From: the human T2T-CHM13v2.0 reference genome, Homo sapiens
DNA: 64,000 nucleotides
Reading direction: 5' to 3' (one strand)
NCBI RefSeq assembly: GCF_009914755.1
Contig: NC_060927.1
Shown: piece after piece, positions 32,322 to 63,646 of the stretch
Layout of the letters: every line of letters starts with the position of its first letter
Position numbering within the stretch: the stretch's first letter is position 1
Notes under the pieces: generated by a model
What the model saw: the letters and a program-made list of their open reading frames with translations, nothing else
Database searches by the model: none
What the model was told of the DNA's origin: nothing
Made by a program: the position numbers and the translations under genes

Positions 32322-32385
32322 CTAGTGCCCAACGGCTTGGAGGATTTCCAGGGCCAAGGGAGCCACCGCACTGTCGGCAAATGAA
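32322..32385 (-). CDS. ULK4: ULK4 terminal exon coding part (SFADSAVAPLALEILQAVGH*)
   Basis: Minus-strand acceptor TTTTTCTTACAG|T; phase matches the upstream exon; C-terminus matches recalled ULK4. Confidence 0.92.
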
Positions 32386-34879
32386 CTGTAAGAAAAACCA
32401 AAGTAGGTACACTTAATAGGCATCTCTAAGGTAAAGTGCTCCCCCCTTTCAAAGGGGCCAGCCTCTTTTGCACCCGAGTATCTGGTGGACCAGCTGCAGC
32501 ATCCTCTTGGGAAGCAGAAGCAGGAAATCCTGGCCCACAGTCCTGGTGGGGTTCAGAATTGGCCATGCCAGCACCCTGAGCTATTTCTGAGCTCCCAGCC
32601 CCAGCCACCACTCACTATCTGAGCCACCTCTGCCAGAAACACTGCCAGTGAGTGGTAGGCAGCCAGACTCTACCAGGCCTGGGGCCTTCAGTGGGCCTGC
32701 CTGGCTCCTGCCTGGAGCTGACTTATGTGTCCCAGACCCACTCCACACACTGACCCTCCCTGCTCCATTGCCCTTTCCAGCCAATCAGCCAGGAGCTTTC
32801 TTACTCTTATAGGTGTGGATGTGCAATTAAGAGCTTAAAACGGGAACTTTTTTACTGGAGCAAATTGTTTGAGACACATTTAAAACTATGTTTAACAACT
32901 GCTAGCAAAGAAAAGACTGAAACCAGTGACCCTTGAAGTGTAAAATTAGCTCGTGGCACACTCTTGACTGCACAGAAATAGAGCTGGTACCAAATAAATG
33001 GGTGGGGGTGGGGCGCTGCATAAAAGATGTGGGTGGCAGTGGGATGGGGCCATGACCAGGAGACCGTTCCATGCATTCCTGCTCTGCGCATCAAAGCCCG
33101 TGTGACAGAAGGAATGCGTTTGAACTTGGCCCACCCCTGGCTGAGTCTAGGCTAGACTAGTGGGGCCATGCTGCGCCCCCGCACACAGCAGGCCCAGTGA
33201 GGCTGGAAAGGACAAACTACTGGCAGAGCAGCATCGGAACTGAGAACAATGCCATCCACTCATTCTTGGTTGACAAGAAAACCCTTTCTGGTAAGGCAAT
33301 CTGAACAAAGTCCAAACGAGAACTTTGCAGGAGCAACTTCCCCGCCCAACACAAGATCTGTCTGGTGTAGACGTTTTAGATGCTGGAGTACTGAGTGTGG
33401 GTGCAGGACAGACCACCAGCCTCATGGACCACTGAACCTTGTTTTGACACATTTGGTCCAAATTTGGGTCCAGCATGAGGATGTGCTATTTTTGGCTAAA
33501 AGGCAGCTATAGGTCCCTACTATGAGGAGACCCATAGCGCAGGTGCCTAGAGCGAAGGGGCTCTCTAGAGCTGTCTGTCAAACTCCACTCCTCTGTGGCT
33601 CTCTCTCTGCCCTCGGCATAAATCTCTGTAGCTGGCTCTATAATGGCATTTTGCACAAGGCCAGGATCCGATGGCATGTGCTCCTCAAAATAGTCTTACA
33701 GGAGGCCTATAGGCCAGTCCAGGGAGTCACTGTTCACACCTTACATGGCAGGGGCTCAGCAAGGTGTGAAGGGGCTTTTTGCAGGAAAGTCAGTCTCTCC
33801 TGCCCCTCACCTCACAGAAAACCATGAATACGAACTTACTTCTATGGTTTATGCTGAAGACAAAAGGGGTAGGGTTAGGCTAAAAAGGATGGTATCCTCC
33901 CCTCTCACCTATCCAGGATTAAATACAAAAGGCTGATTGGAATTGAGCCTTCTCTGCAAACTCACCTTCTTAGCAATGCTTCAGCCACTTATTTTTCTTC
34001 AAATTAATAACAAACCCAAAGCACACCAGGAAGCAGATTTCATAGAAACATGTAGTTCTAAAAACAGAATCTACCAGGAAATGGCAGACAGCATTCCAGG
34101 TCCAGTGAAGGTCAGGCACCCCATAGGAGGCGGGTCCTTCTCCCCAGGGTGGGGAAATGTTCCACTGAGCATCAGCGTCTCTGTGGGGCTGGCTGGGATG
34201 CCAGCTCCTTCTGCTTTTACAGCATGTAACATGCTCCTGGGTGATAGGCCTATCTCCGGTCTGTGGAACTCACTTCTAGGATGTTCTAGACACACTGACT
34301 GTACAGCCAAGGACCGGGAGGCTAGCCTAACCCCATGCTGTCAGCTTCCGGGTGTCAAATACGCAGTTCTGTGTGGTCCCTCTGAACTTCTGGCTGAGGA
34401 AGGTAACCTGGTGCAGCAGAGCAGGCTAAGCTGTCACATTTGCCCCAGCCCTGCCTGGGCCTTGAGTCCTCCACAAGGTGGTGATGAGGATGCCTCTGGC
34501 TGGGCTGCTGATGGGGGCATGTGTGCACAGGCCAGGGGCTGCCTTTCTCATGAGGTTCCTTGCATCTCCCACTTGGTCATCCACTCAACCTCTTCAGGGG
34601 CCTCAAGGTGGGAATATTGTTTCCCCTGGCAGGACTAAGACTTTCTCTCCCCCTGTTGATTCCTGTCCCCTCACTTTCCCCACCATAACTGGGGATTCCC
34701 AGTGTGTGGAGTGGCAGAGCTTCCCTTCCCACACTGGGAAGGATCTCAGTGGACAGTGATGGGCTGGAAGGTGGTAGTCCCTGGTGTGGAGGGAGATGAG
34801 TGGGAGGAGTGGAGAAAGGAATGGCTGAGAGTGTGTGCTGATCTAGAGCAGACTGCTGATCCTCCTGGGTCCCACTTAC

Positions 34880-34965
34880 CCACTCCCAGGGGCCAGCCGC
34901 TCCAGAGCCCGCAGGAGGCTGCCTGCATTCTTGAGGCTCTCCAAGTGCTTCTCATTGGAGGTGAT
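34880..34965 (-). CDS. ULK4: ULK4 penultimate exon (86 nt; ITSNEKHLESLKNAGSLLRALERLAPGSG)
   Basis: CTCCTGCCCTTGCAG|ATC acceptor in phase 0; GG|GTAAGT donor; open frame joins the terminal exon. Confidence 0.92.
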
Positions 34966-37900
34966 CTGCAAGGGCAGGAGGAAGAAGACAGTGGTCAGCT
35001 GACCCGTCCCTGACTCATGCCCTGTTGGATGGGCACCCTGAGTATCAGGCCTGCATGGTGCTGTGGCTGCCTAAGGCACTGGGGGGTGTCCCCTGGGCTT
35101 GTCTGTAACCCCCATGCGTAACCTCCCCCACAGAGTGTTGCTGACCAAGGGGAAAGAGGCAGGACACTGGTGGTCCTCAGGGGAGGGGACAAGGCAGTCT
35201 GCTGGGGCAGAAGACGGCCAGTTCAGGGCAGGGAGCCTCCTGCGGATCTCTCAGGAGAGTTTGTGTCTGGGAACCTGAACTTTCCAATTAAAGCAAAACT
35301 ACTTTTTCTGTGCTGGGACTCAAGAGGCCTGGCTAGCAACTGGAAATCTGTCTTTGGGGCTCTCAGCCCAACATGATCTCTTTCACGTGGATAGAAGGAT
35401 GCCAAGAAGGTGCCTGGGGACCTGGGAGAGAGGCATTAATAACTAAACCCCAGGAAGTGTGCCCATGCTAATCGCCACAGTCCTATGAGAAAAACACTTG
35501 GGCATGCCTGACTCTGTAGCACCTATTTGCAGAATCATACACTCTCAGGGCTAGAATAGGCTCAGGTGGGGATTTATCTAGACCCACAATTCTAGACCCA
35601 CCCAGAGACCTCACAATTCAGACCCTCCATAAAATGAGTCCATGTCCTGAAAGGCAGAGAAGAGAAGGCTTTGATTCTACTATTAGACTTGCTTCTCTTA
35701 ATTCACCGTTGCCTCCTATTGTTATCTTTGTTAGTTTAAAATTTCTTGTAATAAACGCTTGTATGGCACTTTACATTTCAGAATGCTGTTTCCTATATGT
35801 TTTCTCATTTAATCTTCTCAACAGCCTACCTTACAAGGTAAGTATATATCATGTTTTATTTATGAGGTAACCAAAGCTGAAATTAAGGGGCTGCTACAGG
35901 AGTCCACACGGAGCCAGACTGTCTCCCCACCACGAAGGTGGAACCAGGATGGCTTCAGCTGACTTTGATCACAGCAACCGAGGCTGGATTATTGTCTCCT
36001 TAGTTAAGAGGCTCAACATTTTTTAATCAACCACTCATGATAGGTCACAGGGGTAACTAAACATTAACATGAACTCTGAATTATATATGAATGCATTCGC
36101 ACCTCCACTGAGATCCTCTCCCACCTTCCTGAGTATGCCAGAGAACAGCTGCCAGTTCAACTGCATCAGGTGTGATTTCTGCAAAGATTTGCATCTCGGA
36201 AGAGCTGCATGTAAATTTGTTCTGAAATTGCACCCAACTTGATGTGTTCAAAAGACTACTGCTTAAAAATGCCAGCTGTAGTTCAATTATGTCTGAAGTA
36301 TGCATAAACTTACACTGAAGGTACACTCCCCATCAGGCGTCTTCAGTGAGGATTCCCACTTCATTTTTCTCAGAACTGCCTCAAACAGGTCAGCTGACTA
36401 CATCCAGGCTCAGTGCCCCGACCAGCCCTGCCATGAGATTGTGTGCAGAGGCTGTGCTCCCAGGAAATCACCCACAAGTTGCAAATAAATCAGAAGATGA
36501 CTTTCATCCACAAGGCTGGTTAGAAGGTGCAAATAGAAATCTACAGTGACAGTTATGTGATCAAAGGAAGATGCCAAAATGGTATCATGTGTAGCTGACA
36601 TAAATGTAGACATAAACAACGCCAATTGAAAACTACGTGGTTTGGCCATTTACCTGACTCTTATTCATAACATCAGCTGTTGTTCTGTATATAAGGATGA
36701 GTTAATTCAAAAATAAAAATTTTAAATTATATCAATCAGAGGTTCCAGTTCTGCGTAAGACAGAGAAAACACATGACACTCTTTCTCTCCCTCTGGATGC
36801 AAATCTACAGCGCAGCTATTTCAGAACACTGAAAAGCAAACAGCAACAGGTAAATAGGAGAGGACACTGAATTCAAAGCACCACTGAACTGGCAGTGAGT
36901 TTACCACTTCTTTCTTAGCCTGGATGCAACAAACCCAAACCCCAAAAGCCCTAGAAGAAACCCAGCTTGAGGAATAGAGAAGGGAAATCCCCAAAACCCT
37001 AGAGAGTAGATGAAACCCCCTCAAGATTGCTTTGCTCTTTTTTCTCCATCCTCTTGTGTCCCAGGCCATTCTGTGATGGCAGCAGTGGTAGTGGGGACAG
37101 AGGTGGCAGCAACAATAGCCAGCAAGAGGAGCCTGCAACCAGATCTCTATTCTTTCTCTGTTCTCCTAGTGTTTGGCCTGGATGTTGCATAATCATGGAA
37201 CTAGGCAGTTTTAGGCCAGATAAAAAATGGGAAACCCAGAGAACCAGAAAGTACTGGGGAGAGAATGAATCAAGAAGAGCTTAGTAAAGTTACTCCATAA
37301 AACTGTTTATGAACTCTTGGCCTCACCCCCAACCTGTGTATGCATGGAACCGATCCCAATAGCATGCCCCAGAATTGAAGAACTGAGGTAACAAATATAT
37401 CTCTGCTCACATCCCAGACTGACCCCTGGGGAGGGACACACCAGATAGATGCACATAGCACTGCAAAACCTGTGAAACCAATATGACACTGAAATTACAA
37501 TTCCAACCTGCAGCCTGAACCTAATCAGCATGATTGCTTGCTAAAACAAAAATATCAATATTCTCTGTAGTATTTAACAAGACAGGGTCTTATAATGTAA
37601 TATTTTTAATGACCAGGATACAATTCAAAATTACTTGGCAAAAGCAACCATAAAATCTCAGCTGACATGAAAAAAGACAATCAACAGAGGACAATAAACA
37701 AAATGACATATGTTGGAATTATCTGACAAAGACTTCAAAGTGCTATTATAAAAATGCTAAAAACAATCACTAACACTCTTGAAACAAGTATTACAATAGA
37801 ATATATCAGTAAAAAAGGAGAATATAGCAAAGAAGAACCAAATGAGAATTTTCTAACTAAAAACATAATAACCACAAATTTAAATTTAAAGTCATCACTG

Positions 37901-39990
37901 GATAGACTCAATAGCAGAATGGAGACAATAAAAGGAATGAGTCAGTGAACCTGAAGAAGATAGATCAATAGAAATTATCCAATCTCAGCAGCAGAGATTG
38001 AAAAAAAAAAAAAAAAAAGATTGAGAACACAAATGAGCAGCACCTCAGGGACCTATGAGACAATAGCAATAAGTTTTTGTCATTGGAGTTCCAGAATGAG
38101 AGGACAGAGAATAAATGAATGAAAAAGTATCTGAAGAAATCATGACTAAAACTATTCCAAAACATGCTCAAAGAAATAAATCTACAGATTCAAGAAACAG
38201 TAAATCCCAAACAAGATTAAACCCAAAGAAATCCATAACCAAATCCATCAAAATCAAACTTGCTGAAGACAAAGGATGTTGAAAGTGGGCAGAAAAAAAA
38301 ATGATATATTACTTATAGGGTAACAATAATTTGAATTATTGTGAATTTCTCATCTGAAACTACTGAGGCCATTAGATTTTAAGATGCTAAATGAAATGAA
38401 CTACCAAACTAAAGTTATATACCTAGAAGATATCATTCAGAAATGATATCATAGTTTCAAAATATTATTTAGGAATGAAGGTGAAATAAAGATATTTTCA
38501 GATGAATGAAAACTAATAGAAGCAGAGCTGCTATAAAAAATTTACTAAAGGAAGTTCTTCAGAGAGAAAGCAAATAACACCAGAAGGAAACTTGGAACAT
38601 CAGGAATGAAGGAAGAGCAATAAAAATGGTAAATATAACAGGATATTATCTTTCTTTAAAAGCTGTTTAATAGTAGAAAAGAAAAAATACATATAATATT
38701 GTATTGATGGGGTTTTCAACATATGTAGATGTAACATATAAGACAGCTGGAACATAATAAGATGGGGGAGAGCAAAGGAACCTATATGGTAGTAAGGCTT
38801 TTATGTTCCATTTGAAGTGGTAAAATATTGTCATAAGTAGACTCTAAAAAGTTAAGTATTTTATAACTCCAAGAGCAACCACTTAAAAAAATTATACAAA
38901 GAGATGTAATTTAAAAAAAAACCCACAACAGATAAATTAAAATTTAATATTAAAAATGTTCAAATAGCTTAAAAGAAAGCCGGAAAAGGAAAAGTGAGGA
39001 AATAAAAACACTGAACCTAATCAGAAATCAAATAAAAAGGCAAACTACATTGTAACATACCAAGAATTACATTAAATGTAAATGATCTAAATGCAGCAAG
39101 TAAGAAATCTCCTGAATGATTTTTAGAAATGATCCAACCATCTATTGTGTGTAAGAATCTTAATTCAAATATAATGAGATAGTGGTTTAAAGTAAGAGGA
39201 TGAAAAAAGATATACCATGCACACATAAATCAAAAGAAAGCTAGAGTGGCTATAGTAATGTCAGGCAAAGTAGACTTCAGAGCAAAGAAAATTACCAGGG
39301 ACATATTTTGATTAAAGGGTTTTGTAACCAAGAAGACATAACAATAAATGTGTATACATCTAACAGTAGAAATTACACATACAGAAAGCAAAAACTGATA
39401 CAACTGAAAAGGAAAACAGATAAATCCACAATCGTAGTTGGAGATTTCAAAACTCCTCTCATGATAAGAAACAGGATAAGTAGACAAAAATCAGCACGGA
39501 TACAGAAGAACTGAGGAACCCCATCAACCACATGAATCCTATTGACATTTGTAGATCACTGATCCCATCAACAACAGTATTCACATATATTGCAAGAATC
39601 CAGGAATACTTACAAATGTATACAGTATTCTGTGTCATAAAACGTATCTTAACACATTTAAAAAAATTGAAACCATATAAAATATATTCTCTGACCATAT
39701 GGAATTAAACTAGCAATTAATAACCAAGATAACAGGAATATTTTCAATCACTTGGAATTAAACAGCACACTCCTAAATAATCCAAGGGTTAAAGAGGACA
39801 TTCCAAGAAAAATTAGAAAATAATCTTAGCTGAATGAAAATGACCTTGATACAACATGTCAGCATCTGGAAGGGGGCTAAAGCAATGCTTAGAGGGAAAT
39901 CTATAGTACTAAATACTTATTTTAGGAAAGAAGAAATGTTCCTAATCAATCAATAATTTAAGCTTCTACATCAAGGAACTAGGAAAAAAG

Positions 39991-40300
39991 GGCCGGGCGC
40001 GGTGGCTCACACCTGTAATCCCAGCCCTTTGGGAGGCTGAGGAGGGCGGATAACTTGAGGTCAGGAGATTGAGACCAGCCTGGCCAACATGGTGAAACCC
40101 TGTCTCTACTAAAAATAGAAAAATTAGCCAGGCGTGGTGGAGGGTGCTTGTAAATCCCAGCTACTCAGGAGGCTGAGGCAGGAGAATTGCTTGAACCCAG
40201 GAGGCAGAGGTTACACTGAGCAGAGATCATGCCACTGCACTCCAGCCTGCGTGACAGAGCGAGACTCCATCTCAAAAAAAAAAGAAAAGAAAAAAAAGAA
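39991..40300 (+). mobile_element. AluS, full length
   Basis: GGCCGGGCGCGGTGGCTCAC...; TSD AACTAGGAAAAAA. Confidence 0.95.
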
Positions 40301-40518
40301 GAAACTAGGAAAAAAAGGAGCAAAACAAACCCAAACTGGGAAGAAAACAAGAGCAAACATTAAGAGGAATGTGGTAAATGTAGGCCCTAAAATATCAATA
40401 CTTACATTAAATGTAGATTTACCAAATGCTCCAAGTAAAAGATTTCAAGCTGTATATAAACAAAATAAAACATATCTCTTATATATAATTATATACATCT
40501 GTAATATATAAATTATGG

Positions 40519-40520
<2 letters not shown>

Positions 40521-40551
<31 letters not shown>
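40521..40551 (+). repeat. (AC)15 microsatellite
   Basis: Read directly from the sequence. Confidence 0.95.
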
Positions 40552-40554
<3 letters not shown>

Positions 40555-40574
40555 CTTATAACAAATATATTTTA

Positions 40575-40967
<393 letters not shown>

Positions 40968-41585
40968 CTAATACCAGATAAAGTAGACGTTAAGGCTATA
41001 ATCGTAACTAGAGGTAAGGAGGGACATTTCATATTTATAAGAAAATAAATTGGCCAGGAAGATACAGCAATTCTAAATTTGTGTGCTCCTGATCACAGCC
41101 TCAAAATATATAAAACAAACAAATAAAAATGACAGAATTAAAGTGAGAATTACATAAATCCACAATCATGGTGACATACTTTTCAATCTCTTCCAGCAAT
41201 GTGCATACAGAAACCAGAGGGGACACACAGGTTCTATACAACAAGAGTAACAGAATTGACTTAATTCACTTATATAAAAAATCATCTAAAAACTGCAGAA
41301 TATATATTCTTTTCAAGTGCATATGGAAAATTTCCAAAATATACCATCTGCTGGGTCTTTAAGGCAAGTCCTGACAAATTCCAAAGGTATAAATCTGATA
41401 AAATATATCAGGATCTCTATGAGTAAAAACTGTAAAATGCTGACGAAAGAAAATAAATAAATGGATACACAATATTCAAGGATTGGAAGGCTCAATATAA
41501 TAAAAATTTCTTCCAAAATATAGGTCTAATGAAATTCCTATCAAAATCTCAGCAGAAATCTTTGTAATATAGAATAGCTGAGTCT

Positions 41586-41618
41586 ATTGCTTCTTGGCCT
41601 TTTGGCTAAGATCAAGTG
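41586..41618 (+). pseudogene. 3'-truncated U2 snRNA retropseudogene (U2 nt 1-33)
   Basis: ATTGCTTCTTGGCCTTTTGGCTAAGATCAAGTG vs U2 ATCGCTTCTCGGCCTTTTGGCTAAGATCAAGTG; only two CpG>TpG changes. Confidence 0.92.
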
Positions 41619-42261
41619 AAGAATAACTGACTCTAAAATTTGCAATGGAAAGGCAAAGGAGCCAGAACAGGTAAAATAATTTTGAAAAAGCAGAATAAAA
41701 TTTAGCCATCATACTACCCAACTTTAAGAGGCACTACATGATTCCAGCAACCATGACAATGTGGTACTGGCAGAAGGTCAGACACACAGATAATGGAATA
41801 GACAACAGAGCCCAGAAACAGAACTACACAAATTATTGTTAAAATTTTGACAGAGGTGCAGTTAATTCAAGGAGGGAAGAACAGTGTTTTGAAAAAGCAG
41901 TGCTAGAACAAATGGATGCGCATATGCATAAACATCAACCTAGACATATATTTTACATCTTATATAAAATGTAATTTTAAATGGATGATGGATCTAAATG
42001 TAAAATGTAAAAACTATATAACTTCTAGAAGAAAATATGGAAGAAATTCTGTGACCTTAGATTTGGTGATGAGTTTTTAACATAAAAACATAATCCCTTA
42101 AAAAAATTATAAATTGGACTTCGTCAATGTTAAAAACTTTACTTTTTGAAAACATAAGAGAATGAAAAGATATGCCATAGACTTGGAGAAAATATTTGCA
42201 ACTTACATATCTGATAAAGGACTTATATCAAGAACATAAAAGTAACTCTTTAAAAATATTA

Positions 42262-42420
42262 TTTTTAGAAAGAGGGTCTCTGTTGCCCAGGCTGGAGTGC
42301 AGTGGTGTGATCATGGTTTACTGTAACCTCATACTCCTGGGCTCAAGCAATCTTCTTGCTTGGCCTCTTGGTTCTCACCTTGGCTGGGATTACAGATGGA
42401 GGCCACCATGCCCAGCTAAA
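42262..42420 (-). mobile_element. Partial AluJ/monomer, antisense
   Basis: TGTTGCCCAGGCTGGAGTGCAGTGGTGTGATCATGG...CTCCTGGGCTCAAGCAATC. Confidence 0.85.
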
Positions 42421-42740
42421 AAGAACTCGTCAAATTCAATAATAAGAGAACGACCAGCCTAGTTTTTAAAATGGGTAGAAAATCTGAATAGACACATCAG
42501 AAAGAAGATATATGGGTGGCAAATAAGAAAAGATAACTCAACGTTGTTTGTCATTAGGGAAATGCATATTAAAACTGCAGTGCAATACCTATTAGAATGG
42601 CTAAAATTCATAACACTGACAATAACAATGTTGGTAGGGATGAAGAATAACAGCAGTTCTCATTTATTGCTGATGTGAATGCAAGATGGAACAGTGCTTT
42701 GGAAGACGATTTGGCAGTTCTTTATAAAACTAAACATACA

Positions 42741-43040
42741 GGCCAGACACAGTGGCTAACACCTGTAATCCCAAAACTTAGGGAGGCTAAGGCAGGTGAA
42801 TCACTTGAGCCCAGGAGTTCAAGACCAGCCCCAGCAACATAGTGAGACCTCATCTCTGCAACGAAATAAATAATAATTAGCTGGGTGTGGTGGTGCACAC
42901 CTGGTCCCAGCTACTTGGGAGGCTGAAATGGAAGTATCGCTTGAGCCTGGGAGGTCAAGGCTTCAGTGAGCCATGATCAAGCAACTGCACTCTAGCCTGG
43001 GTGACAGGGTGAGACTATGTCTCAAAAAAAAAAAAAAAAA
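42741..43040 (+). mobile_element. AluJ, full length
   Basis: GGCCAGACACAGTGGC...GCTTGAGCCTGGGAGGTCAAGGC...poly(A); TSD TAAACATA. Confidence 0.92.
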
Positions 43041-44340: not shown

Positions 44341-44523
44341 ATATATATATATACATATATGTGTATATATATACAGATATACATATATACATATGTATAC
44401 ATATATACATATCTATGTGTATATATACGTATACACACATATATGTATATGTATATGTGTATATACATCTGATGATATATATACATATATGTATATGTAT
44501 ATATGTGTATATATATATATATA
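44341..44523. repeat. Compound (TA)n/(TACA)n/(TATG)n microsatellite
   Basis: About 180 bp of mostly alternating purine-pyrimidine sequence. Confidence 0.95.
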
Positions 44524-49244: not shown

Positions 49245-49680
49245 TGTGTATTGAGCACCTATGTGTTGGACTCTGTTTAGATTCTGGAGAAATAGCAGGG
49301 GGTGCCGGGTGTCAAGTCAGAGCTTCCACCTTGAGAAACACAATTAAAAAGTAAACAAATACAATAATTTGAGATGCTGATAGGTGTCATGAAGAAAGTA
49401 AAGGAGGGGAGAGAAGAACAATGGTGTGAGGTCAGCCAGGACAGTCTCCCTGAGGAGGTGACACATAAGCCAAGGGTAGAATGATGAGAAAGAACCAGCC
49501 ATGAGAACATGTGAGGGACTTATATTGTAAAAAGGGGTGATAGCAGCAACCATGAAGGCCTGAAGTGGGAACAGGTGAGGCAGAGATTTTTTAAAGGTTG
49601 CAGAAGCAGGGACCAGCTGGAAGCCAGAAGCCAGTTAGGAGGGACTTTGGGAATGGTCCAGGTGAGAGGCAACAGGATGA
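49245..49680 (-). mobile_element. L2 fragment
   Basis: TATTGAGCACCTATGTG...CTCCCTGAGGAGGTGACA...AAGGCCTGAAGTGGGAAC. Confidence 0.65.
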
Positions 49681-52429: not shown

Positions 52430-52965
52430 TTTTTTTTTTTTTGCTTTTAAGTTCCAGGATACATGTACAGTACATGCAGGTTGGTTACATAGGTATACGT
52501 GTGCCACGGTGGTCTGATGCAGCTATTGACCCGTCTTCTAAGTTGCCTCCCCTTGCCCCGCATCCCCCAACAGGCCCTGGTGTGTGATGTTCCCCTCTCT
52601 GTGTCCATGTATTCTCATTGTTCAACTCCCACTTATGAGTGAGAACATGCAATATTTGGTCTTCTGTTCCTGTGTTAGTTTGCTGAGGATGATGGCTTCC
52701 AGCTTCATCCATGTCCCTGCAAAGGACATGATCTTATTCCTTTTTATGGCTGCATAGTACTCCATGGTGTATATGTACCACATTTTCTTTATCCGGTCTA
52801 TCATTGGTGGGCATTTGGGTTGGTTCCATGACTTTGCTATTGTAACTAGTACTGCAATAAACATACGTGTGCATGTGTCTCTATAGTAGAATGACTTATA
52901 TTCCTTTGGGTATATACCCAGTAATGGTATTGCTGGGTCAAATGGTGTTTCTGATTCTAGATCCT
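52430..52965 (-). mobile_element. 5'-truncated L1PA 3' end
   Basis: Minus-strand ORF2 C-terminus MFIAVLVTIAKSWNQPKCP...MEYYAAIK...LISGS, plus 3'UTR and T-tail. Confidence 0.93.
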
Positions 52966-53389
52966 TTAAAACTTATCTTGGACACACTCATTTACCCTGA
53001 AATAGAGGATATGATGGATGCTAAAAAGGTGACAGTTCTAAATGCCCTACCACTATAAATTCTGCATGACTCTTAGAGCCTAATTTGACATCAGCCACAG
53101 TGAAAAGTCCTTAACATGCACTCCTCCTGTCCACACCAGATCAATGAGTCCTGCTGCTACTCTCGTTTACAGATGAGGAAACTGTCACCTCAGGAGGCAA
53201 AGTGACTAGCCATGGTCTTCCTGACTTCGAATCCTTGATCTCAACCATCAAAGGACACTGAGAAAGAATGAAGGAGTCAGCAGTTGTAGCTGAGATGTCT
53301 ACCAGATTGAGAGAGCCCGTGAAATAGGAGTCCAACTGTAGCTGTGTTTGATTCAGTGGCTTCATGGCACAGCCGACTACTTCACATTC

Positions 53390-53605
53390 ATATTCCTCAA
53401 CTGGGGGTGATTTTGACCCCCAGGAGACATTTGGCAATGTCTGGAAACACTTTTGGTGGTCACAACTGGGGATAAGGGGAGGTGGACTGGCATCTAATGG
53501 GTAGAGCCAGAAATGCTGCTATACACTCCATATTGCACAGGACAGTCCCCATGATAAAGAATTATCTGACTCACAATGTCAATAGTGCCGAGGTTGAGAA
53601 ACCAT
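53390..53605 (+). mobile_element. MER20 hAT MITE
   Basis: GGGGGTGATTTTGACCCCCAGGAGACATTTGGCAATGTCTGGA...AATGTCAATAGTGCCGAGGTTGAGAAACC. Confidence 0.88.
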
Positions 53606-53914
53606 AGGCTAGACCATCTGATCCATGCTGAGTCACGCTGTGTTGCCTTCTCATGTTACATCAGGATGCCTTTCTTTGAAAGGTTACTAACCACCCTCCC
53701 CACTGGACTACAAACCCTTCTTTTCCTCTCTCCTGAGGTTGAAGTCTTGGACCAGCCTTTCTTCCAACACATAATACTCTTACTTCTGCGGTACTTGGGT
53801 CAGTGGCTATCACTTGGTTATATCCTGTCCCAGGGTGAACTTGTGCTTCAAGGTCCTTCTGGGCTGCCCAAGGCAGAGAGGTTCTGGCAGACTACCCTTA
53901 AATGCCTCACACTC

Positions 53915-54193
53915 GGCAGGGCATGGTGGCTTATGCCTGTAATCCCAGCACTTTGGGAGACCGAGGCGGGCAGATCATTTGTGGTCAGGAGTTCGAGACC
54001 AGTCTGGCCAACATGGTGAAACCCCATCTCTACTAAAAATGCAAAAATTAGCTGGGAATGGTGGTGTGCACCTGCAGTTCCAGCTACTCGGGAGGCTGAG
54101 GCAGGAGAACGCTTGAACCCGGGAGATGGAGGCTGCAGTGAGCCGAGATCGCACACTGCACTCCAGCCTGGGTGACAGAGCAAGACTCCGTCT

Positions 54194-54225
<32 letters not shown>
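53915..54225 (+). mobile_element. AluS, full length
   Basis: Alu dimer with (CA)n plus poly(A) tail; imperfect TSD GCC(T/C)CACACTC. Confidence 0.95.
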
Positions 54226-56784
54226 GCCCCACACTCCACCCTCTTCCCAGAAAGTAAAGACGCAGCTCTTCAGATGAAGGCTTTCCACACAGCTGCTACA
54301 GAGCCAGCAAGGAGCAGCCTTCAGATGCAGCTCGCGAAGGCCCACCCTCAGCTGCTCCCTGGACCAAGCGCTCACTGGCCACGCTGACCCAACCAACCCA
54401 GAAGAGAGACTGTATAGCCTGACTAACTGGCACACACTTGTCACCAGGTAGTTCTTTTCCCCATATGATCCACTTGAGTGAGAATTTGAAACAAGCTTTA
54501 TTACACACCTCTGAAATTAGCTCTGTATGAGTTTTAGAACATATCAGGATTCTGGCAAAAAGATGTGTGATGAGCAGGACTATTTTGTATTTAGGGTATA
54601 ATCACTCACAAGTATCCCTTGTAAATGGATAATTCCATCCACCCCCATTAACTTCACTACTAATTTCAATGCAAATCCATGAAAGGAATAAGGTTCCCAG
54701 CTGGCAGGAATGTCACATATCGCTCAACATGTCCTTTTACAGGAAATCCTACAAGCAGAGACCTGGCCTATGGTAGATAAATGAGCTCCAGGAATTGATG
54801 GTCCTGTACAACAGCACAGTCTTCCAACATCTGGATGAGGTGGCAGAATGCAGCATGATCCAAAGGCTCCCTTAATTGAGGATATTAGGAGGCTACAGTC
54901 CATTTCACCCCATTACAAAATGGTGCCATGAGTCAGATGCTACTATTATGAGATACTTTGGTTCATGATAATGAAACATGAGTTAAGGTCATAAGGATTC
55001 TAAAGTTGTTTTAATGAAATACAATGTATAAAGATGCAAATTTATGAAAAACAAATTATTATATAGATTATCTACATAAGAGAAGGACCTTCATAGCATC
55101 CTTATAAATAGTACAATCTCAATAGTACAAACTTAAAGTTATCCAAATGTAAACATTTGGTTCTACCATTTCTTATAAAGTTAAGTTACCTAATAAAGTG
55201 TACAATAAAGTACTTGCACATGACTAATTAAAGAGATGCTGGGGAAAATCCTTAACTCTTTGGGGACTCATCTTTTTGCTACCCTTGGTACTTTGTGATG
55301 ACTCTACCTCTAGTTGAAAGGTGCAATGAAAATACTATTATCAGTATGAACTGACATGTGCGAAAATTATAAAGTAGACTGTTTTCTATATAAGTTGGAA
55401 TATATATGTATCATATTAGGATACATACACACACACACAGCATAAACAGACATATACAGCCTAAGATAAGGATGAGCAAAGTTGTTAGCTAAAGTTGGAG
55501 GTCATGATATTACTCAGAGAAAAAAAGCGATCTGTCATATGAAATAAAAACTACCTGCTCAAACACAAGGCCCAGAGTCCAGAGAAAAGAGGTGGTGATG
55601 CGGCACAGTCAGGCGGGGGAGGATACAAACCCCTAACCAGGAAAGAGTGTGAGAGCTGGGGCTGGAGAGTCATGCTAAGTACTCAATCCATCATTCCCAA
55701 CCCAGCTGGGGAGCTGTGACTTTGAAGCAAGCCCCTGACTGGCTCCATGTATGTCCACAACTGTCCACTCTTCTCCCCATGGGCCCTAGAGTTGTCCTGC
55801 ACATTTGTGGGGTCTGGGTCCTTAGAGTCACGAAGCAGAAACAAAGATCTTAAGCCCTTTTCCTTTTCTCTCTATCCCTTTTTTAGTTTTTGTTGTTTTT
55901 CTCTGGGTATACAAGCAATAGGGAAGGAATTACCATTTTAAAGTTCAACCTTCTGGATCCAAGGTGGCTTTAGAGGCACATCCTGTTAGTAGCTGGTAAT
56001 GGTAAGAGCTAACAAGTATTGAGTGCTTACTGTATGCCAGGTACTGTTCTGAAAACTTAGAAATGAATTAGCTCATTTAAGCTTCTGTTAAATACTACTA
56101 ATGTCCTCATTTTATACGACGAGATCGTGGCAGAAAGGTTAAGTTTCTAAAGAAATAATTAAAAACCTTCCATGGAGTAATTAAAATTTAAATCCCATAA
56201 AATGACAAAGTCTGAGAGTAGAGTACATTTTTTACTTCTGTTTATTCATTCGTTCACCAGCAAAAATTATTACAGTAACTTTTTTTCTAAATATAACCAT
56301 CTTTCTAAACTATTTCTTTAAAGATATACTATTTATATTGACATTGTTTTTACCTAGTTGTTGCAGGGCTTATAAAACTGTGTTTTCTATATTTTTCTAT
56401 GTCCTTTTTCTATGTCTTTCTCACATTCTACTCTGTCTTAATATACTAATTTTTAACAGCTTTACTGAAGTTTAACTGACATATAGTAAACTATACAATT
56501 TGCTAAGTTTGGATATACGTATACAATTGTGAAACCAACACCACATCAAGACAGTGAATATATCCATCATTCCTCATGCCCGTTTGTAATCTCTACCTTC
56601 TTCTCCCCACACCCAACTCCACCTTGCAGGTACCCACTGATTTCCTTTCTGTCGTCATATGCTACTTTGCATATCCTAAAACTTTATATAAATGGAATCA
56701 TACCATATATATTCTTCTCTGGCTTCCTTCATAAACCATAATTATTTTGAGATTTATCCATATTATAGCATGTATCAATAGTTC

Positions 56785-57109
<325 letters not shown>

Positions 57110-57263
57110 TAGTATTCTATTGTTTGGATACATCACAGTTTGTCTGATCACCTATTGATTGACATTTGGATTGTTTCCAGATTTGGGCTATTACAAATAA
57201 GGCTACTATGAACCCTCATGATTTATATTGAGAACATCATGGTAGTGTAGTTACCATTTCTGA

Positions 57264-57641
<378 letters not shown>

Positions 57642-59007
57642 TGAAGGGCTTCCTGTAGTACCAGTCTGCTGGTAATAAATTACTTTACCTTCTGTATACC
57701 TGAAAATGTCTTTTGTTGCTTTCAATTTTGAAAGTTTTTTTTTTTTTTTTTTTTTTTTTGCTGGAAATGGAATTCTAGGTTGACAGTTTCTTCCCCCCTC
57801 ACCCCGCTTTCAATAAAGACGTTGCTTCCTTGTATTCTCACTTGCACTGTTTATAAGAATGTGCCATTATCCTTTGTTCCTCTGCATGTAATGCTTCCTT
57901 TTCCACTGGCTGCTTTAAAGATTTTCTCTTTACTACTGGTTTTGTGCAATTTGATCATGATATACCTTGGTGTATTTTTTTTTTTTATGTTTCTAGTGCT
58001 TGAGGTTCATTGAGTATATTGGATCTATGGGTTTATAGTTTTCATGAAATTTAGAAAAATTTCAAGCATTATTCCTTCAAATATTTTTGCTACTCTCTTC
58101 CATTCTCCCTCTTTCATTAGCTCCAATCACACATGTTAGGACACTTAAAGTTATCCAACAGTTATCTTTATTTATTTCTGTGTTTCATTTTGGATAGCTT
58201 CTATACGTTCACACTCAGTAATTTTTCTTCTGCAATATCTAATCTACTGTTAATACCATCCCATGTATTTTTTCCTCAGATATTATAGTTTTCATTTCTA
58301 AAAGTTTTCCTTAGGTCTTTTTTCATATCCTCCATGTCTCTGGCTAAAATTTTTGAACATATGGAATAGAGTTGTAACTTTTAACATCCTTGCCTGCCCA
58401 TTCTAATGTCTGTGTCACTTCTGGATTGGCTTTGATAGACTGTATTTTTCTGCCTCTTTGCATGCCTTATAATCTTTTATTATGAAATTATAAAATTGTA
58501 TAACATTATAAAATTTACCTTATTGGGTACTTGATATTTTTGTATTCCTAAAAATACTCTTGATCTTTGCTTTCAAATACAGCTGAATTACTAGAAACAT
58601 TTTGTTTTTTTGAGGTCTTGCTTTTCTGATTTTCTAGGCAAGTCTGAAGCAGTGCTCAATCTAGGACAAATTATTTCCCCTGTTGAGGCAAGACCCTTCT
58701 GTGTATTCTACCCTATGCCCCAGGAACTATAAGGTTTTCTAGTTTGCCTGGTGGGAATGGGCACTATTCCTGGCCCTGTACCAGCATGGGGCATTGTTCC
58801 CTTTAATCCCTTTGGATGGCTCTTTTCCTGACCTCACATACAGGCACTGATCAGTACTGCTGAAATACTCAAGAGAAACCATCCATACATTTCCAGGGTT
58901 CCGCTCCAGTACTGTGTACTATTGAACACTAGCTGTCTTGGTCTCTCTGGACTCAGCTCTGTCTTCTGAACATGGAATCTGTTGGGCCCCACCTCAGTTC
59001 CTCTCTC

Positions 59008-59454
59008 CTATAGTTTAGATACGATTTGTTTGGTCCCATCAAACCTCATGTTGAAATTTGATTGCTAGAGTGGGGGTGTGGGGAGGTGGGGCCTAGTGGG
59101 AGGTGTTTGGGTAATGAATGGAGTGGATCGCTCATGAATGGCTTGGGGCTATTCTAGCAGTAGTGAGTTCTTGCTTTTGCAAGACTAAATTAGTTCTCAC
59201 CAGAATGGACTGGTTCCTGTGAGAGTGGGTTGTTATAAAGCCCCTCAGATTTCCCTCTCTTCACATATGTCTGCTTCCTCCTTGACCTTCTATACCATGT
59301 TGTGATACAGCACAAAAGCCCACACCAGAAGCCAGGCCATGCCCTTGAACTACCTTAACCTGCAAAACCGTGGGCGAAATAAACCTCTTTTCTTTATAAA
59401 TTACCCAGTCTCAGGTATTTTTTTTTTATACTAACACAAAACAAACTAAAGACA
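59008..59454 (+). mobile_element. MaLR solo LTR (MSTB-like)
   Basis: TATAGTTT...AAACCTCATGTTGAAATTTGAT...GGGAGGTGTTTGGGT...AATAAACCTCTTTTCTTTATAAATTACCCAGTCTCAGGTATT...AAGACA. Confidence 0.85.
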
Positions 59455-62261
59455 CCCTCCATATGCTGTGGCCTGTAAACTCTCAAGGCAGTAAGCTGAG
59501 GCAATCATAGGACTCACCTGTTTTGTGTGCCATCTCTCAGAGGTCACTATCTTTCACTGCCTGGTGTCCAGTGTCTTGAAAGCCATTGTTTTCTGTATTT
59601 TTTTTCCTCTTCTTTTGGCTGTTTCAAGGCAGGAGGGTAAATTTGGGCCCTATTACTCCATCTTGACCAGATACGGAAATTCTCATGGTTGGATACCTGT
59701 GATATTTCCAGGTTTCACTTTTGTGCATGTGCATTGGTTTGCCATATATTTTAAGGCTCCACAGTAACACAGACAGCCACTAGTAATTGTTCCCTAAAAA
59801 TTCTGTGTGGGAATGTCTGAGATGTTTGTGCTCTGCGCTGCCCACTTATCTGACTCTGATACACATCAGTTCAGTCACAGTGGTAATGTTTTCTCTCAAA
59901 AAACACAAATTAATCAACTTTTGAAAAAGGTCTAGGGACAGACTCATGGATTTAAAGATGAGTGGCAGCCACAGAACCTTAAATTAAATTGTTATAAGAC
60001 TATTTTGGCACAGATACAGCCCAATTATTGTGGGCCTTGGCCTAGAATACACGGTTATGACTATATTGAAGCAGAATAAAATTTTGGTGGGCTTGATTTA
60101 TTAGTTCCCTTAGATTTCTGATATGCCAAACAACCAAAACAGTCAATTCTACTCTATGGAGCTGTGTTCCAATTTGATATTGCTCCAATTTGCTGGCATT
60201 TCTCTGAGTCTCATGTATCTCGTGGATTCATGTACCAAGGACTTCTATTTATGTGGTGGCAGGGAAGATAAAAGATTATGAGAAAAGATGCCTCCATGAC
60301 AGCTACCCGACTCTGCTAAGCCTTTGGATGCAGTGCACTTTCTACTAATGATTCTATGTGGGAATGCCTGAGACATCTGTGCTCTACACTGCCCACTAAA
60401 CTGGCTCAGAGGCTAACATTCCAATGGGGCCAAAGTACAGTGAACTGGGTTGTCCCACAATCCTCATGAGAAAGACACAGGCAATCTTGTACAGCCTGTG
60501 GTGCTTGGGAAACACCCTAGAAGAAGTGACTTATCTATTACTTCCCATAAAGAATGTTTGGACAGTGACAAAGCAGAGTTACTCATGTGTCATTGCTACT
60601 TGGGCTTTGGGGATCCTCTGGATCAGTGATCCATTACTACAGAGGAGACCTAGAAGTTCTCTTTACCTTCTGCCAAGTTAGAAACAATTTGCTGGTTGCA
60701 AAGAACAGTTCTATAGCACTTTGTTAAGGGTTACAGTAAAGCACTGGTATGGGTTTTGCTTTTGAAAGTATTTGTCTTATTTGACCTGATATTTAGGTGA
60801 TTTTGAAGCAAACCATTAAGTACACAGAAACAAAACATTAGATCAAAAGATCCAACTTAAAAAGAATGCCTACAAGATCAAAGCCTCTGTTCATCCTCTC
60901 TTCCTGCAGGAGTGTCTAGCAGAGGGAGAAAACATTTCTTTTGAGAAATACCCTTTTCAAAGAAAGATTAGAATCTGGCTTTAAGAGAATGGCCAAAGGG
61001 TGGGGAGATAGGGGGTGGGAAAAAATCAGTAATGGCATTCAGAGCAAACTTTTTCAGCTACCAGTCCTGACAAGTTGGCATATCCATCAGATGTCTGAAT
61101 GCTCATGATAGAACAGCCCAGCTACTGGTGAACTTACTTAGAATCTTTCTAACATTTCCAGAGTCCAAGGTGACACCATCTCCCCAAGAAATGTACAGTT
61201 CTGCCATTCCCTCCAACTAAGATCAACCCAGCTGCTGCTGCCATCAGCTCCCAGGCAGAACAGGTGGTTAATGATCTGTCCTCATTGGGTATGGGCTTTG
61301 TCTATGGATGTATTAAAGAAGGAATATCAACAAAGAATGGGACATCCATGATGCAGAAAGGATGAAGAATTAGCTCCTTTGCCAGCTTCTGATTCCATTC
61401 CACAATGACAGAATAGGTAACAAACAGGACTACTGCTGATACCCAGGGGTATGGTTTAGCATCTCAGAAGAGAAAAATGAGCTAGAGAATATGTGTCTGT
61501 AAACATCAGATATCTGCCATGCAATGGCTCACCTCAAACTGTGAGAGTTTCAATGCACTGACTAGTTGGTTCTTTCATTCTCCTATAGTTATCTGATGAT
61601 AGTAAGTAAGGAACACATTTGGCACCCTTACCCCAACTCCAATTTAACAAAAGACTCCTTTCTTCAGAGCTCTGAGGAAACTCTGTCTTCTAGTTACCTT
61701 TCCGGACCTTCGAGTCTCCCTCCAGGGCAAACCTTTCACTTCAGATCTTGAGAATCTGTGTTCTCAATTTGTCCCATGACTCAAAGTTTTGGACTCTTCC
61801 TTATTCCTTGGACCATCCAGGGGAAAGCTCCAGCCCTTGCACCCTTCACGAGGCTGAGAGGGGACGTCAGAGGATAAAAACATGTGATAGAAAAAGAATA
61901 AAAGCTCAAGACAGATTGACTGAAAGGAAAACCTCAGAGCTGAAACAGCTCTTTGTCTTCAGTCTTTTTTAGTATATGACAGGAATGTAACTACATAAAA
62001 ATTGCATTCTGCAAGGAAACAGCTAATTATAAACAGAACAAAAAAGGAAACAAGAAACTGGGAAAATAGTTGTAACATTTCTCACAAAGGGTTTGGGTGT
62101 TTTCCTAGTAAAGAACTCCTGCAAATCAATAAGTATAAGGTCAACTCAAAGAAACTGGGCAAAACATTAAAAGACAATGAACTACATAAAACACATTCAC
62201 ATGACTTTTAGATAGGAATTTGTGCTTAATCTCACAGTAGCATACAAATTAAAACAATGCA

Positions 62262-63209
62262 AGATTAACCAAGAAAAGAAGAGATAAAATCCAAATAACC
62301 TCACTAAGAAACAAAACAGGAGATATTACAACTGACACAACTGAAATACAAAAGGCTACTATGAACACCTTTACACACATAAACTAGAAAACCTAGAAGA
62401 GATGGATAAATTCCTGGAAAAATACAACCCTCTTGAATCAGGAAGAACTAGATACCCTGAAAAGACCAATAAAAAGCAGTGAGACTGAAATGGTAATTAA
62501 AAAATTACCACCAAAAAATGTCCAGGACCAGATGAATTCACAGCAGACTTCTATCAGACATTCAAAGAAGAATTGGTACCAATCCTTTTGACACTATCCC
62601 ACAAGATAACAAAAGAAGGAACCCTCCCTAATTCATTCTATGAAGCCAGCATCACCCTAATACCAAAACCAGGAAAGGACATAACCAAAAAAGAAAACTA
62701 CAGACCGATATCCCTGATGAACATAAATGCTGAAATCCTTAACAAAATACTAGCTATCTGAATCCAACAACATATCAGAAAGATAATCCACCATGATCAA
62801 GTGGGTTTCATATTAGGGATGGAGGGATGGCTTAACATATGCAAGTCAATAAATGTCATATACCACATAACAGAATTAAAAACAAAAATCACATGATCAT
62901 CTCAAGAGATGCAGAAAAAGCATTTGATAAAATGCAGCATCCCTTTATGATTGAAACTCAGCAAAAGCGGCATAAAAGGGACATACCTCAATGTAATAAA
63001 AGCCATCTATGACAAGCCCACAGCTAACATAATACTGAATGGGGAAAAGATGAAAGCATTTCCTCTGAGAACTGGAACAAGACAAGGAGGCCCACTCTCA
63101 CCACTCCTCTTCAGCATAGTACTGGAAATAAAGGGCATCCAAATTGGTAAACAGTAAGTTAAACTGTCACTGTTTGCTGATGATATGATCACTTACCTTA
63201 AAAACCCTA
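62262..63209 (+). mobile_element. L1 (L1PB/old L1PA) ORF2 fragment, RT region
   Basis: [19 protein letters not shown]...[11 protein letters not shown]; [16 protein letters not shown]; LFADDMI. Confidence 0.92.
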
Positions 63210-63223
63210 GGGGTTTTTGCTTC

Positions 63224-63233
63224 CAAGATGGCC
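63224..63233 (+). promoter_or_regulatory. YY1 site of the L1 internal promoter
   Basis: CAAGATGGCC at the L1 5' end. Confidence 0.8.
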
Positions 63234-63424
63234 AAATGGGAACAGCTCTACTCTGCAGCTCCCAGTGAGATCGATGCAGAAGACAGGTGATTTCTGCATT
63301 TCCAACTGAGGTACCTGGTTCTTCTCATGGGATGCACATGGGTGCAGCCCATGGAGAGTGCGCCGAAGCAGGGCGGGGTGTCGCCTCACCTGGGAGGCAC
63401 AAGGGGTCGGGGGATTTCCCTTTC

Positions 63425-63646
63425 CTACCCAAGGGAAGCCATCATAGTCTGTACCTGAAAAAAACGGGACACTCCTGCCCAAACACTGCACTTTTCCCAC
63501 AGTCTTAGCAGCCAGCAGACCAGGAGATTCCCTCCCGTGCCTGGCTCGGTAGGTCCCACGCCCACAGAGCCTAGCTCACTGCTAGCGCAGCAGTCTGGGA
63601 TCAACCTGTAAGGCTGCAGCCCGGTTGGGGGAGGGGTGTCCGTCAT
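63425..63646 (-). CDS. L1 ORF0 homolog, 73 aa, open (expression unknown)
   Basis: MTDTPPPTGLQPYRLIPDCCASSELGSVGVGPTEPG...AGVSRF aligns without gaps to recalled L1HS ORF0 (MAGAPPPASLPPCSLISDCCAS...SVGVGPSEPG...VGVTRF). Confidence 0.6.
   Translation of the reverse strand: MTDTPPPTGLQPYRLIPDCCASSELGSVGVGPTEPGTGGNLLVCWLLRLWEKCSVWAGVSRFFQVQTMMASLG

What the first reader, a model, noticed from the sequence alone, without database searches (positions are those of the whole stretch)
32322..63646. Intact L1 ORF0 poised to splice in frame onto the last two ULK4 exons (predicted 113-aa ORF0-ULK4 fusion)
Seen: the + strand L1PA 5'UTR has an open antisense ORF (ATG at 63646-63644, purine at -3, TAG at 63427-63425) pointing the same way as ULK4. 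A donor CAG|GTACAG (GT at 63454-63453) falls exactly 192 nt (64 codons) after the ATG, so it is in phase 0. The next ULK4 coding exon downstream (34965-34880) starts in phase 0, giving 64 aa of ORF0 plus 49 aa of ULK4 C-terminus and the ULK4 polyA site. The T7 run before the donor looks 1 nt longer than the recalled L1HS sequence, and that extra base is what creates the phase match. Known: the primate L1 antisense promoter drives ORF0, and ORF0 splice donors form fusions with neighbouring exons. Inference: this copy could make an unannotated primate-specific microprotein or chimeric RNA running toward the CTNNB1 3' end. A phase match has a 1-in-3 chance prior, the donor is only moderate, and the intron would be about 28.5 kb.
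Basis: partly seen in the sequence, partly recalled or inferred. Interest (0 to 1): 0.8.

Follow-up and report, generated by a model that had tools for sequence, protein, structure and literature searches.

The report
L1 antisense promoter feeding ULK4 tail
An old, dead L1 element inside a ULK4 intron fires backwards and splices onto the last ULK4 exons, an RNA already catalogued in melanoma and stem cells, and the predicted 113-residue ORF0-ULK4 fusion protein is arithmetically possible but unproven and probably a minor product at best.

Summary
That covers the minus-strand ATG at 63646, the 73-codon ORF0 homologue, and the donor CAG|GTACAG 192 nt after the ATG. It also covers the phase-0 ULK4 exon 34965-34880 and the 113-aa in-frame product.

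The extra T is real. ATG-to-donor is 191 nt in 25 of 28 nearest relatives and in 26 of 30 younger copies.

The chimeric RNA is already in print, in supplementary tables only. Criscione 2016 lists four melanoma ESTs from this "L1PA6" into ULK4 and marks it detected in H1-ESC PacBio data. A table copied from Shah 2023 lists a CAGE-validated L1PA6 (intron 35) to ULK4 exon 36 transcript in SK-MEL-2.

The fusion protein is not shown.
- Three of the four EST 5' ends lie downstream of the ATG.
- The in-ORF donor is weak, and a much stronger donor sits after the ORF0 stop.
- The one EST that covers the ATG is missing from the table of ORFs of 100 aa or more, where a fusion-spliced EST should appear.

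Verdict: a known kind of L1 antisense chimeric transcript, with the in-frame fusion as a plausible minor isoform. Interest is low to moderate.

The parts
63213..64000 (+). 5'UTR of a full-length but dead L1 (named L1PA6 in two published tables). It continues about 5.2 kb beyond the window, for about 5.98 kb in all, and is nested in an older L1 ORF2 fragment.
   Evidence: paralogues are 85-87% identical. ORF1 and ORF2 are broken into pieces; an A run, then the target-site duplication AAAAACCCTA; CpG observed/expected is 0.28. Searches give the subfamily name.
63425..63646 (-). ORF0 homologue of 73 codons plus TAG. The ATG context is GCAATGA.
   Evidence: 32-34 of 73 aa and 139-143 of 192-193 aligned nt columns identical to 71-aa ORF0 copies of younger L1s. 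No Pfam family matches.
63458..63464 (-). T7 run holding the extra base that moves the internal donor from 191 to 192 nt after the ATG.
63447..63457 (-). Internal donor CAG|GTACAG (last exon base 63455, GT at 63454-63453), in phase 0. It is the family-typical site, homologous to the donor younger L1s use.
   Evidence: the same 9-mer is in 21 of 28 relatives; 6 of 9 U1 matches, -7.2 kcal/mol. EST usage of the homologous site in young L1s.
63382..63392 (-). Stronger competing donor CAG|GTGAGG (last exon base 63390), 35 nt after the ORF0 stop.
   Evidence: -11.6 kcal/mol, the best of 25 GT sites in the antisense 5'UTR..
63528..63683 (-). Approximate 5' ends of four melanoma ESTs (about 63528, 63535, 63550 and 63683) after shifting hg19 coordinates. 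Only one lies upstream of the ATG.
   Evidence: The offset is inferred from the ULK4 gene end and checked against the polyA site, a repeat boundary and the L1 start given in hg38.
34880..34965 (-). ULK4 penultimate coding exon (exon 36), phase 0, with a strong acceptor. It is the named splice target of the L1PA6-initiated transcript.
   Evidence: the row reads 'intron_35 ULK4 exon_36'.
32322..32385 (-). Coding part of the last ULK4 exon. It ends in TAG.
32188..32210 (-). Proximal polyA signal AATAAA (32210-32205) and the place where the EST 3' ends map (about 32188-32192).

Best explanation
A full-length, coding-dead L1PA6 in ULK4 intron 35 keeps an active antisense promoter in its 5'UTR. In permissive cells (melanoma, embryonic stem cells) it starts short RNAs that run with ULK4. 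These RNAs splice from the antisense L1 onto ULK4 exon 36 and the last exon, and end at a proximal polyA site near 32188. This is an ordinary L1 antisense chimeric transcript, and it is already catalogued.

This copy also carries an open 73-codon ORF0 homologue. One extra T places the family's internal donor in phase with exon 36. A transcript that starts upstream of 63646 and uses that donor would therefore encode a 113-aa ORF0-ULK4 tail protein.

My inference is that most transcripts do not do this. They either start downstream of the ATG or use the stronger donor after the ORF0 stop. Those RNAs are non-coding or encode only the 73-aa peptide. The fusion would be a minor isoform at best.

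What is shown: the sequence anatomy, the homology, the phase, and the existence of the antisense start and of splicing into exon 36. What is inferred: which donor is used and what is translated.
For: Anatomy and phase.

Homology to ORF0 and its donor.

Transcription.
- Criscione 2016 (PMC4908685), Table S1, lists ESTs BE275962, BM806703, BU183995 and BU161674. All are from melanotic melanoma, run antisense from 'L1PA6 +' into ULK4, and are marked 'Detected in PacBio RNA-seq: yes'. I read the rows and the header. The methods passages say the PacBio data are from H1-ESC.
- Table S7 of PMC10506190 is headed as CAGE validation taken from PubMed 36973455. It has the row TCONS_00085847: L1PA6, chr3:41277829-41279783, intron_35, ULK4, exon_36, minus strand, SK-MEL-2, 12.84.

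Against the fusion being the main product.
- Three of the four EST 5' ends map downstream of the ATG.
- Donor 63455 scores -7.2 kcal/mol, against -11.6 for donor 63390. Sixteen annotated donors in the window average -9.0, and only 2 of the 16 are weaker than -7.2.
- With a start near 63683, donors 63455 and 63429 would give Met-started ORFs of 113 and 127 aa. Donors 63390 and 63315 give at most 73 aa.
- BU183995 is absent from Table S3, which lists ORFs of 100 aa or more by EST id.
Against: - In younger L1s the homologous internal donor is the one mostly used. In Table S3 the string ending at that donor occurs 60 times, and only 12 of those run on unspliced. The position itself is therefore favoured.
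- The ORF0 ATG would be the first AUG of a transcript starting near 63683.
- The absence from Table S3 is weak evidence. TransDecoder may drop short ORFs by score, ESTs contain errors, and my hg19-to-window shift assumes no indels.
- U1 pairing energy is a crude stand-in for a splice-site model.
- I saw no EST sequence, no junction reads and no CAGE position.
Confidence: 0.6

Rival explanations
1. A substantial share of the antisense transcripts start upstream of 63646 and splice 63455->34965, and they are translated into a 113-aa ORF0-ULK4 C-terminal fusion microprotein.
For: - The frame is exact.
- The donor sits at the family's usual, favoured position.
- One EST 5' end maps about 37 nt upstream of the ATG with no earlier AUG.
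- ORF0-exon fusions are a described class, with 57 cases cited from Denli 2015 in passages of PMC4908685.
- The stop would lie in the last exon.
Against: - The donor is weak, with a much stronger one 65 nt downstream.
- Three of the four EST starts lie downstream of the ATG.
- BU183995 is not in the table of ORFs of 100 aa or more.
- The +4 base of the ATG is A, where most of the 28 relatives have G.
- The product matches no Pfam domain. It would carry only the last 49 residues of ULK4, so a stable fold is doubtful; that last point is my inference.
Confidence: 0.2
2. The transcripts mainly deliver the stand-alone 73-aa ORF0-like peptide. They would start upstream of the ATG and splice from a donor after the stop, with the ULK4 exons serving only as 3'UTR and polyA site.
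For: - The ORF is open with a purine at -3.
- The strongest donor lies after the stop.
- This fits the absence of BU183995 from the table of ORFs of 100 aa or more.
Against: - Only 1 of 4 ESTs covers the ATG.
- The peptide is about 45% identical to young ORF0 and is frame-shifted at its end relative to its own subfamily, so any ORF0 function is doubtful.
- An exon junction more than 55 nt after the stop would invite nonsense-mediated decay. That is general knowledge and was not tested here.
Confidence: 0.15
3. The ESTs and the assembled transcript do not come from an L1 promoter. They would be 5'-truncated copies of ULK4 RNAs that exonise or retain antisense L1 sequence.
For: - ESTs are not cap-selected.
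- Three 5' ends lie lower in the L1 than the roughly +400 start region described for the antisense promoter in section 7 of PMC4908685.
Against: - The table heading states CAGE validation in SK-MEL-2.
- Criscione's pipeline removed cases where an EST supported exonisation.
- Melanoma appears in two independent data sets.
Confidence: 0.05

Closest known systems
L1 antisense-promoter chimeric transcripts (LCTs; Speek 2001, Nigumann 2002, Criscione 2016)
   Same: The start lies in the antisense strand of a primate L1 5'UTR. The RNA splices from an L1-internal donor to the next exon of the host gene, in the same orientation as the gene. Expression is seen in tumour and stem cells. This very locus is listed.
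   Different: Nothing essential. The element is older (L1PA6) and CpG-poor, and the target is the last two exons, so the RNA is very short (about 400-650 nt).
L1 ORF0 and ORF0-exon fusion proteins (Denli et al. 2015; known to me only through passages in PMC4908685, PMC4859970 and PMC7746726)
   Same: The position, start codon and internal donor are homologous, and the ORF is about 70 codons. Fusion by splicing out of the ORF is the described mechanism.
   Different: - In 26 of 30 younger copies and 25 of 28 relatives the donor is 191 nt after the ATG (phase 2). Here it is 192 nt (phase 0) because of one extra T.
- The donor is GTACAG, where the copies with a 71-aa ORF have GTGCGT.
- Protein identity to young ORF0 is only 32-34 of 73.
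- Neither translation nor the fusion junction is shown.
TE-chimeric transcript candidates of the pan-cancer TE-antigen survey (Shah et al. 2023; seen only as a copied table in PMC10506190)
   Same: The row for L1PA6, intron 35 to ULK4 exon 36, in SK-MEL-2 describes this element and this acceptor.
   Different: The copied table gives no donor coordinate, start position or predicted protein. The original paper and its tables were not held.

Membership tests
L1 ORF0 | Lies on the antisense strand of a primate L1PA 5'UTR at the homologous position | tested here: met
   It aligns with 28 paralogues and with young copies that have a 71-aa ORF. Identity is 139-143 of 192-193 aligned nt columns, and the ATG and donor line up in the same columns.
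L1 ORF0 | Start codon in a usable context and an open frame of about 70 codons | tested here: met
   ATG at 63646 with G at -3 and A at +4. The frame runs 73 codons.
L1 ORF0 | Splice donor inside the ORF and a second one after it | tested here: met
   CAG|GTACAG at 63455 lies inside the ORF, and CAG|GTGAGG at 63390 lies after the stop. Two donor sites are stated for ORF0 in PMC4859970.
L1 ORF0 | Transcribed from the antisense promoter with the start upstream of the ATG | tested here: inconclusive
   One of four EST 5' ends maps upstream (about 63683) and three map downstream. The CAGE row gives no position.
L1 ORF0 | Translated into a peptide | not testable with these tools
   No Ribo-seq or proteomics data are available here.
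L1 antisense chimeric transcript | RNA starts antisense in the L1 5'UTR and is spliced to an exon of the neighbouring gene | tested here: met
   This comes from published tables, not from reads I could inspect. There are four spliced ESTs plus a PacBio flag, and a CAGE-validated transcript into exon_36.
ORF0-exon fusion protein | Reading frame is continuous from ORF0 across the junction into the host exon | tested here: met
   192 nt plus 150 nt gives 113 aa ending at the ULK4 stop.
ORF0-exon fusion protein | The in-ORF donor is the one actually joined to the exon | tested here: inconclusive
   No junction sequence was available. The indirect signs point the other way: the donor ranking and the absence of BU183995 from the table of ORFs of 100 aa or more.

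The most novel reading that the evidence does not exclude
A single-base expansion of a T run, in this one L1PA6 copy or in a rare sub-lineage of its source, turned a normally out-of-frame ORF0 donor into an in-frame one. Melanoma and embryonic stem cells would then make a primate-restricted 113-aa protein that joins an ORF0-like head to the last 49 residues of ULK4. The junction peptide would be tumour-enriched and could serve as an antigen. If the T run varies in length among people, the protein would exist only in carriers of the T7 allele.
Probability: 0.1. Interest if true: 0.5.

Novelty: new member of a known kind. Interest (0 to 1): 0.27.

Why it matters
If the fusion were made, it would add one case to the roughly 57 reported ORF0-exon fusions. 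It would also show how a 1-nt homopolymer slip can bring a retrotransposon ORF into frame with a host gene, and it would give a tumour-enriched junction peptide.

As things stand, the value is mainly tidying up. The locus is an already catalogued L1 antisense alternative promoter for the 3' end of ULK4, active in melanoma and stem cells and missing from RefSeq. It could confound 3'-biased measures of ULK4 expression in those cells.

Tried and rejected
- Denli 2015 by DOI, and Shah 2023 by PubMed id and by PMC id, were not held. I could not see their lists of ORF0 fusions or their predicted TE-chimeric proteins. These supplements may already contain this fusion.
- Earlier findings of this scan were not open.
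- Full-text searches found 0 papers holding ULK4 with L1PA6 and 0 holding ULK4 with ORF0. No paper listed contained ULK4.
- Pinson 2022 supplements list three other L1 chimeric transcripts in ULK4 (L1PA7, L1PA8, L1PA7) but not this one.
- The RAMPAGE TE-TSS atlas (PMC12963367) supplements held as text have no ULK4 entry.
- I searched Table S3 of Criscione 2016 for ESTs spliced at the old-type donor string. It occurs 3 times, the two occurrences shown were not in L1 sequence, and 0 run on unspliced, so this says nothing about GTACAG donors.
- Pfam finds nothing in the 73-aa ORF or in the 28-aa exon-36 peptide.
- I did not use MaxEntScan or any trained splice model, because none is available here. 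U1 pairing energy, calibrated on the 16 annotated donors in the window, stood in for it.
- I rejected the idea that the ORF being open is itself remarkable. About half of the sampled relatives keep it.
Full report

On the minus strand an ATG sits at 63646-63644, with G at -3 and A at +4. The frame stays open for 73 codons to TAG at 63427-63425.

A run of seven T (63464-63458) is followed by CAG|GTACAG, with GT at 63454-63453. The stretch from the A of the ATG to 63455 is 192 nt, so this donor is in phase 0.

ULK4 exon 34965-34880 (86 nt) plus the coding part of the last exon, 32385-32322 (64 nt), makes 150 nt and ends in TAG. The exon therefore starts in phase 0. A long pyrimidine tract and CAG precede it.

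The intron would be 28,489 nt.

**What the element is**

The L1 begins at about 63213 on the + strand, inside an older L1 ORF2 fragment. Reading 8 kb from the window's own assembly shows three things:
- It runs about 5.98 kb to an A run, followed by the target-site duplication AAAAACCCTA.
- Its ORFs are broken into many pieces.
- Its 5'UTR has lost most CpGs, with observed/expected 0.28.

Its nearest paralogues in the same genome are only 85-87% identical. Two published tables call it L1PA6. I had no repeat library to test that name myself.

**Homology to ORF0 and the extra T**

I aligned the window copy with 28 paralogues:
- 24 keep the ATG.
- 15 keep both the ATG and an open frame as far as the donor.
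- 21 have the same donor 9-mer, CAGGTACAG.
- ATG-to-donor is 191 nt in 25, 192 nt in 2 and 189 nt in 1.

I then took a 19-nt motif from a young-L1 EST printed in a paper's table. It has 2,867 exact matches in the genome, against 0 for the reversed control. Of the first 30 copies on chromosome 1:
- 26 have the ATG 191 nt before the donor.
- 22 are open as far as the donor (21 at 191 nt, 1 at 188 nt).
- None is open in phase 0.
- 8 give a 71-aa ORF.

The window's ORF aligns to those 71-aa ORFs at 139-143 of 192-193 aligned nt columns and 32-34 of 73 aa. In the alignment printed (with L039), the single gap falls in the T run.

Genome-wide, the normal-length 16-mer occurs 143 times (control 4). 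The +1 form occurs 13 times (control 3). The window's T7C spelling is the only one of its kind.

I cannot tell whether the slip happened in this copy or in a rare source lineage. I also cannot tell whether other human genomes share it.

**The RNA exists and is already catalogued**

Table S1 of Criscione et al. 2016 (PMC4908685; I read the rows and the header) lists four ESTs: BE275962, BM806703, BU183995 and BU161674.
- All four come from melanotic melanoma.
- They run on the minus strand from "L1PA6 +" into ULK4, spanning hg19 chr3:41288285-41319781.
- They are marked "previously identified: no" and "Detected in PacBio RNA-seq: yes".
- The methods passages say the PacBio isoforms come from H1 embryonic stem cells.

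I shifted hg19 coordinates to the window using the ULK4 gene end.
- The EST 3' ends fall at about 32188-32192, which is 13-17 nt after an AATAAA at 32210-32205.
- The 5' ends fall at about 63528, 63535, 63550 and 63683.
- The shift assumes no indels. It also fits a repeat boundary near 40450 and the L1 start given in hg38.

Table S7 of PMC10506190 is headed as cell-line CAGE validation taken from PubMed 36973455. It holds the row TCONS_00085847: L1PA6, chr3:41277829-41279783, intron_35, ULK4, exon_36, minus strand, SK-MEL-2, 12.84.

The hub's RefSeq table shows no transcript with an exon in this L1.

**The fusion is not shown, and the indirect signs lean against it as the main product**

- *Start sites.* Only 1 of the 4 EST 5' ends lies upstream of the ATG. 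Section 7 of Criscione 2016 places the main antisense start near position 400 of the L1HS 5'UTR. ESTs can be truncated, so this is weak evidence.
- *Donor strength.* I used pairing with the 5' end of U1 (a motif I recalled) as a crude score, calibrated on the 16 annotated donors in the window. Those range from -5.3 to -11.9 kcal/mol with a mean of -9.0.
  - The in-ORF donor at 63455 scores -7.2, with 6 of 9 matches. Only 2 of the 16 annotated donors are weaker.
  - CAG|GTGAGG at 63390, after the ORF0 stop, scores -11.6. It is the best of the 25 GT sites in the antisense 5'UTR.
  - Sites at 63429 and 63315 score -8.9 and -7.1.
- *The ORF table.* I modelled transcripts that start near 63683. Donors 63455 and 63429 would give Met-started ORFs of 113 and 127 aa. 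Donors 63390 and 63315 give at most 73 aa. Table S3 of the same paper lists, by EST id, all TransDecoder ORFs of 100 aa or more that begin with Met. None of the four ULK4 ESTs is in it. For BU183995 this fits splicing from a donor after the stop. The argument is indirect, because TransDecoder's scoring, EST errors or an error in my coordinate shift could also explain the absence.

One result points the other way. In young L1s the homologous internal donor is clearly the favoured one. In Table S3 the string ending at that donor occurs 60 times, and only 12 of those continue unspliced. That table holds only ESTs with long ORFs, may list an EST more than once, and its cells are cut at 400 characters. 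The same search gave no usable case for the old-type GTACAG donor.

**How it most likely works**

The old L1's antisense promoter acts as an alternative, cell-type-restricted promoter. It produces short polyadenylated RNAs made of an antisense L1 first exon plus the last two ULK4 exons. Most of these are probably non-coding or carry only the 73-aa ORF0-like frame. A minority could carry the 113-aa fusion.

My estimates:
- About 0.3 that the 63455->34965 junction is a detectable isoform.
- About 0.1 that a protein is made at a detectable level.

The product would hold only the last 49 residues of ULK4 and matches no Pfam domain, so a function of its own seems unlikely. That last point is my inference.

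**Comparison with what is known**

L1 antisense chimeric transcripts and ORF0-exon fusions are both described classes. Passages in PMC4908685, PMC4859970 and PMC7746726 say that ORF0 occurs in L1HS and L1PA2-8, that it has two splice donors, and that 57 of about 3,200 genic loci showed fusions.

This locus meets the tests for an L1 antisense chimeric transcript and for an ORF0 homologue. For an ORF0 fusion protein, the frame test is met but the junction test is open.

Nothing I could search links ULK4 with ORF0 or L1PA6 in a main text. The supplements of Denli 2015 and Shah 2023, where this case could already be listed, were not available. Those of Garza 2023 were closed.

**Verdict**

The real feature is a known kind and is already catalogued as an RNA. 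The in-frame fusion is a new but unproven candidate member of the ORF0-fusion class. Interest is low to moderate.

Noticed in passing
window about 40450-40900 (minus-strand start near 40455): Criscione 2016 Table S1 also lists a testis EST, HY209027, that starts antisense in an L1MDa and runs into ULK4 (hg19 41288289-41296553). It is not flagged in the PacBio data. This looks like a second repeat-derived start for the ULK4 3' end.
   Followed up: no
window 32205-32210 and about 32188-32192, minus strand: The L1-initiated ESTs end 13-17 nt after a proximal AATAAA, about 130 nt past the ULK4 stop. The selected RefSeq transcript runs on to 31992, where a second AATAAA lies at 32016-32011.
   Followed up: partly
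loci L007, L011, L012, L013, L015, L017, L018, L019, L022, L029 (paralogues of window 63213-64000): In this older subfamily the unspliced antisense ORF from the homologous ATG runs 108-110 codons in 10 of 28 copies. It reads through the second donor, unlike the 71 codons of young copies. The window copy's extra T cuts it to 73 codons.
   Followed up: partly
window 62400-63212, and beyond the window at L031 about 6199 onward: The L1PA6 is nested in an older L1 ORF2 fragment, which resumes after the A run. The target-site duplication is AAAAACCCTA.
   Followed up: partly
outside the window: ULK4 introns at hg19 chr3:41411847, 41657842 and 41966597: Pinson 2022 supplements list three further L1 (L1PA7, L1PA8, L1PA7) chimeric transcripts in ULK4 in brain or glioma samples. 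ULK4 therefore hosts several active antisense L1 promoters.
   Followed up: no
window 63851, 63846 and 63760, minus strand: Upstream ATGs open short frames of 48, 16 and 9 codons. They would precede ORF0 in any transcript that starts further up in the antisense promoter region.
   Followed up: no
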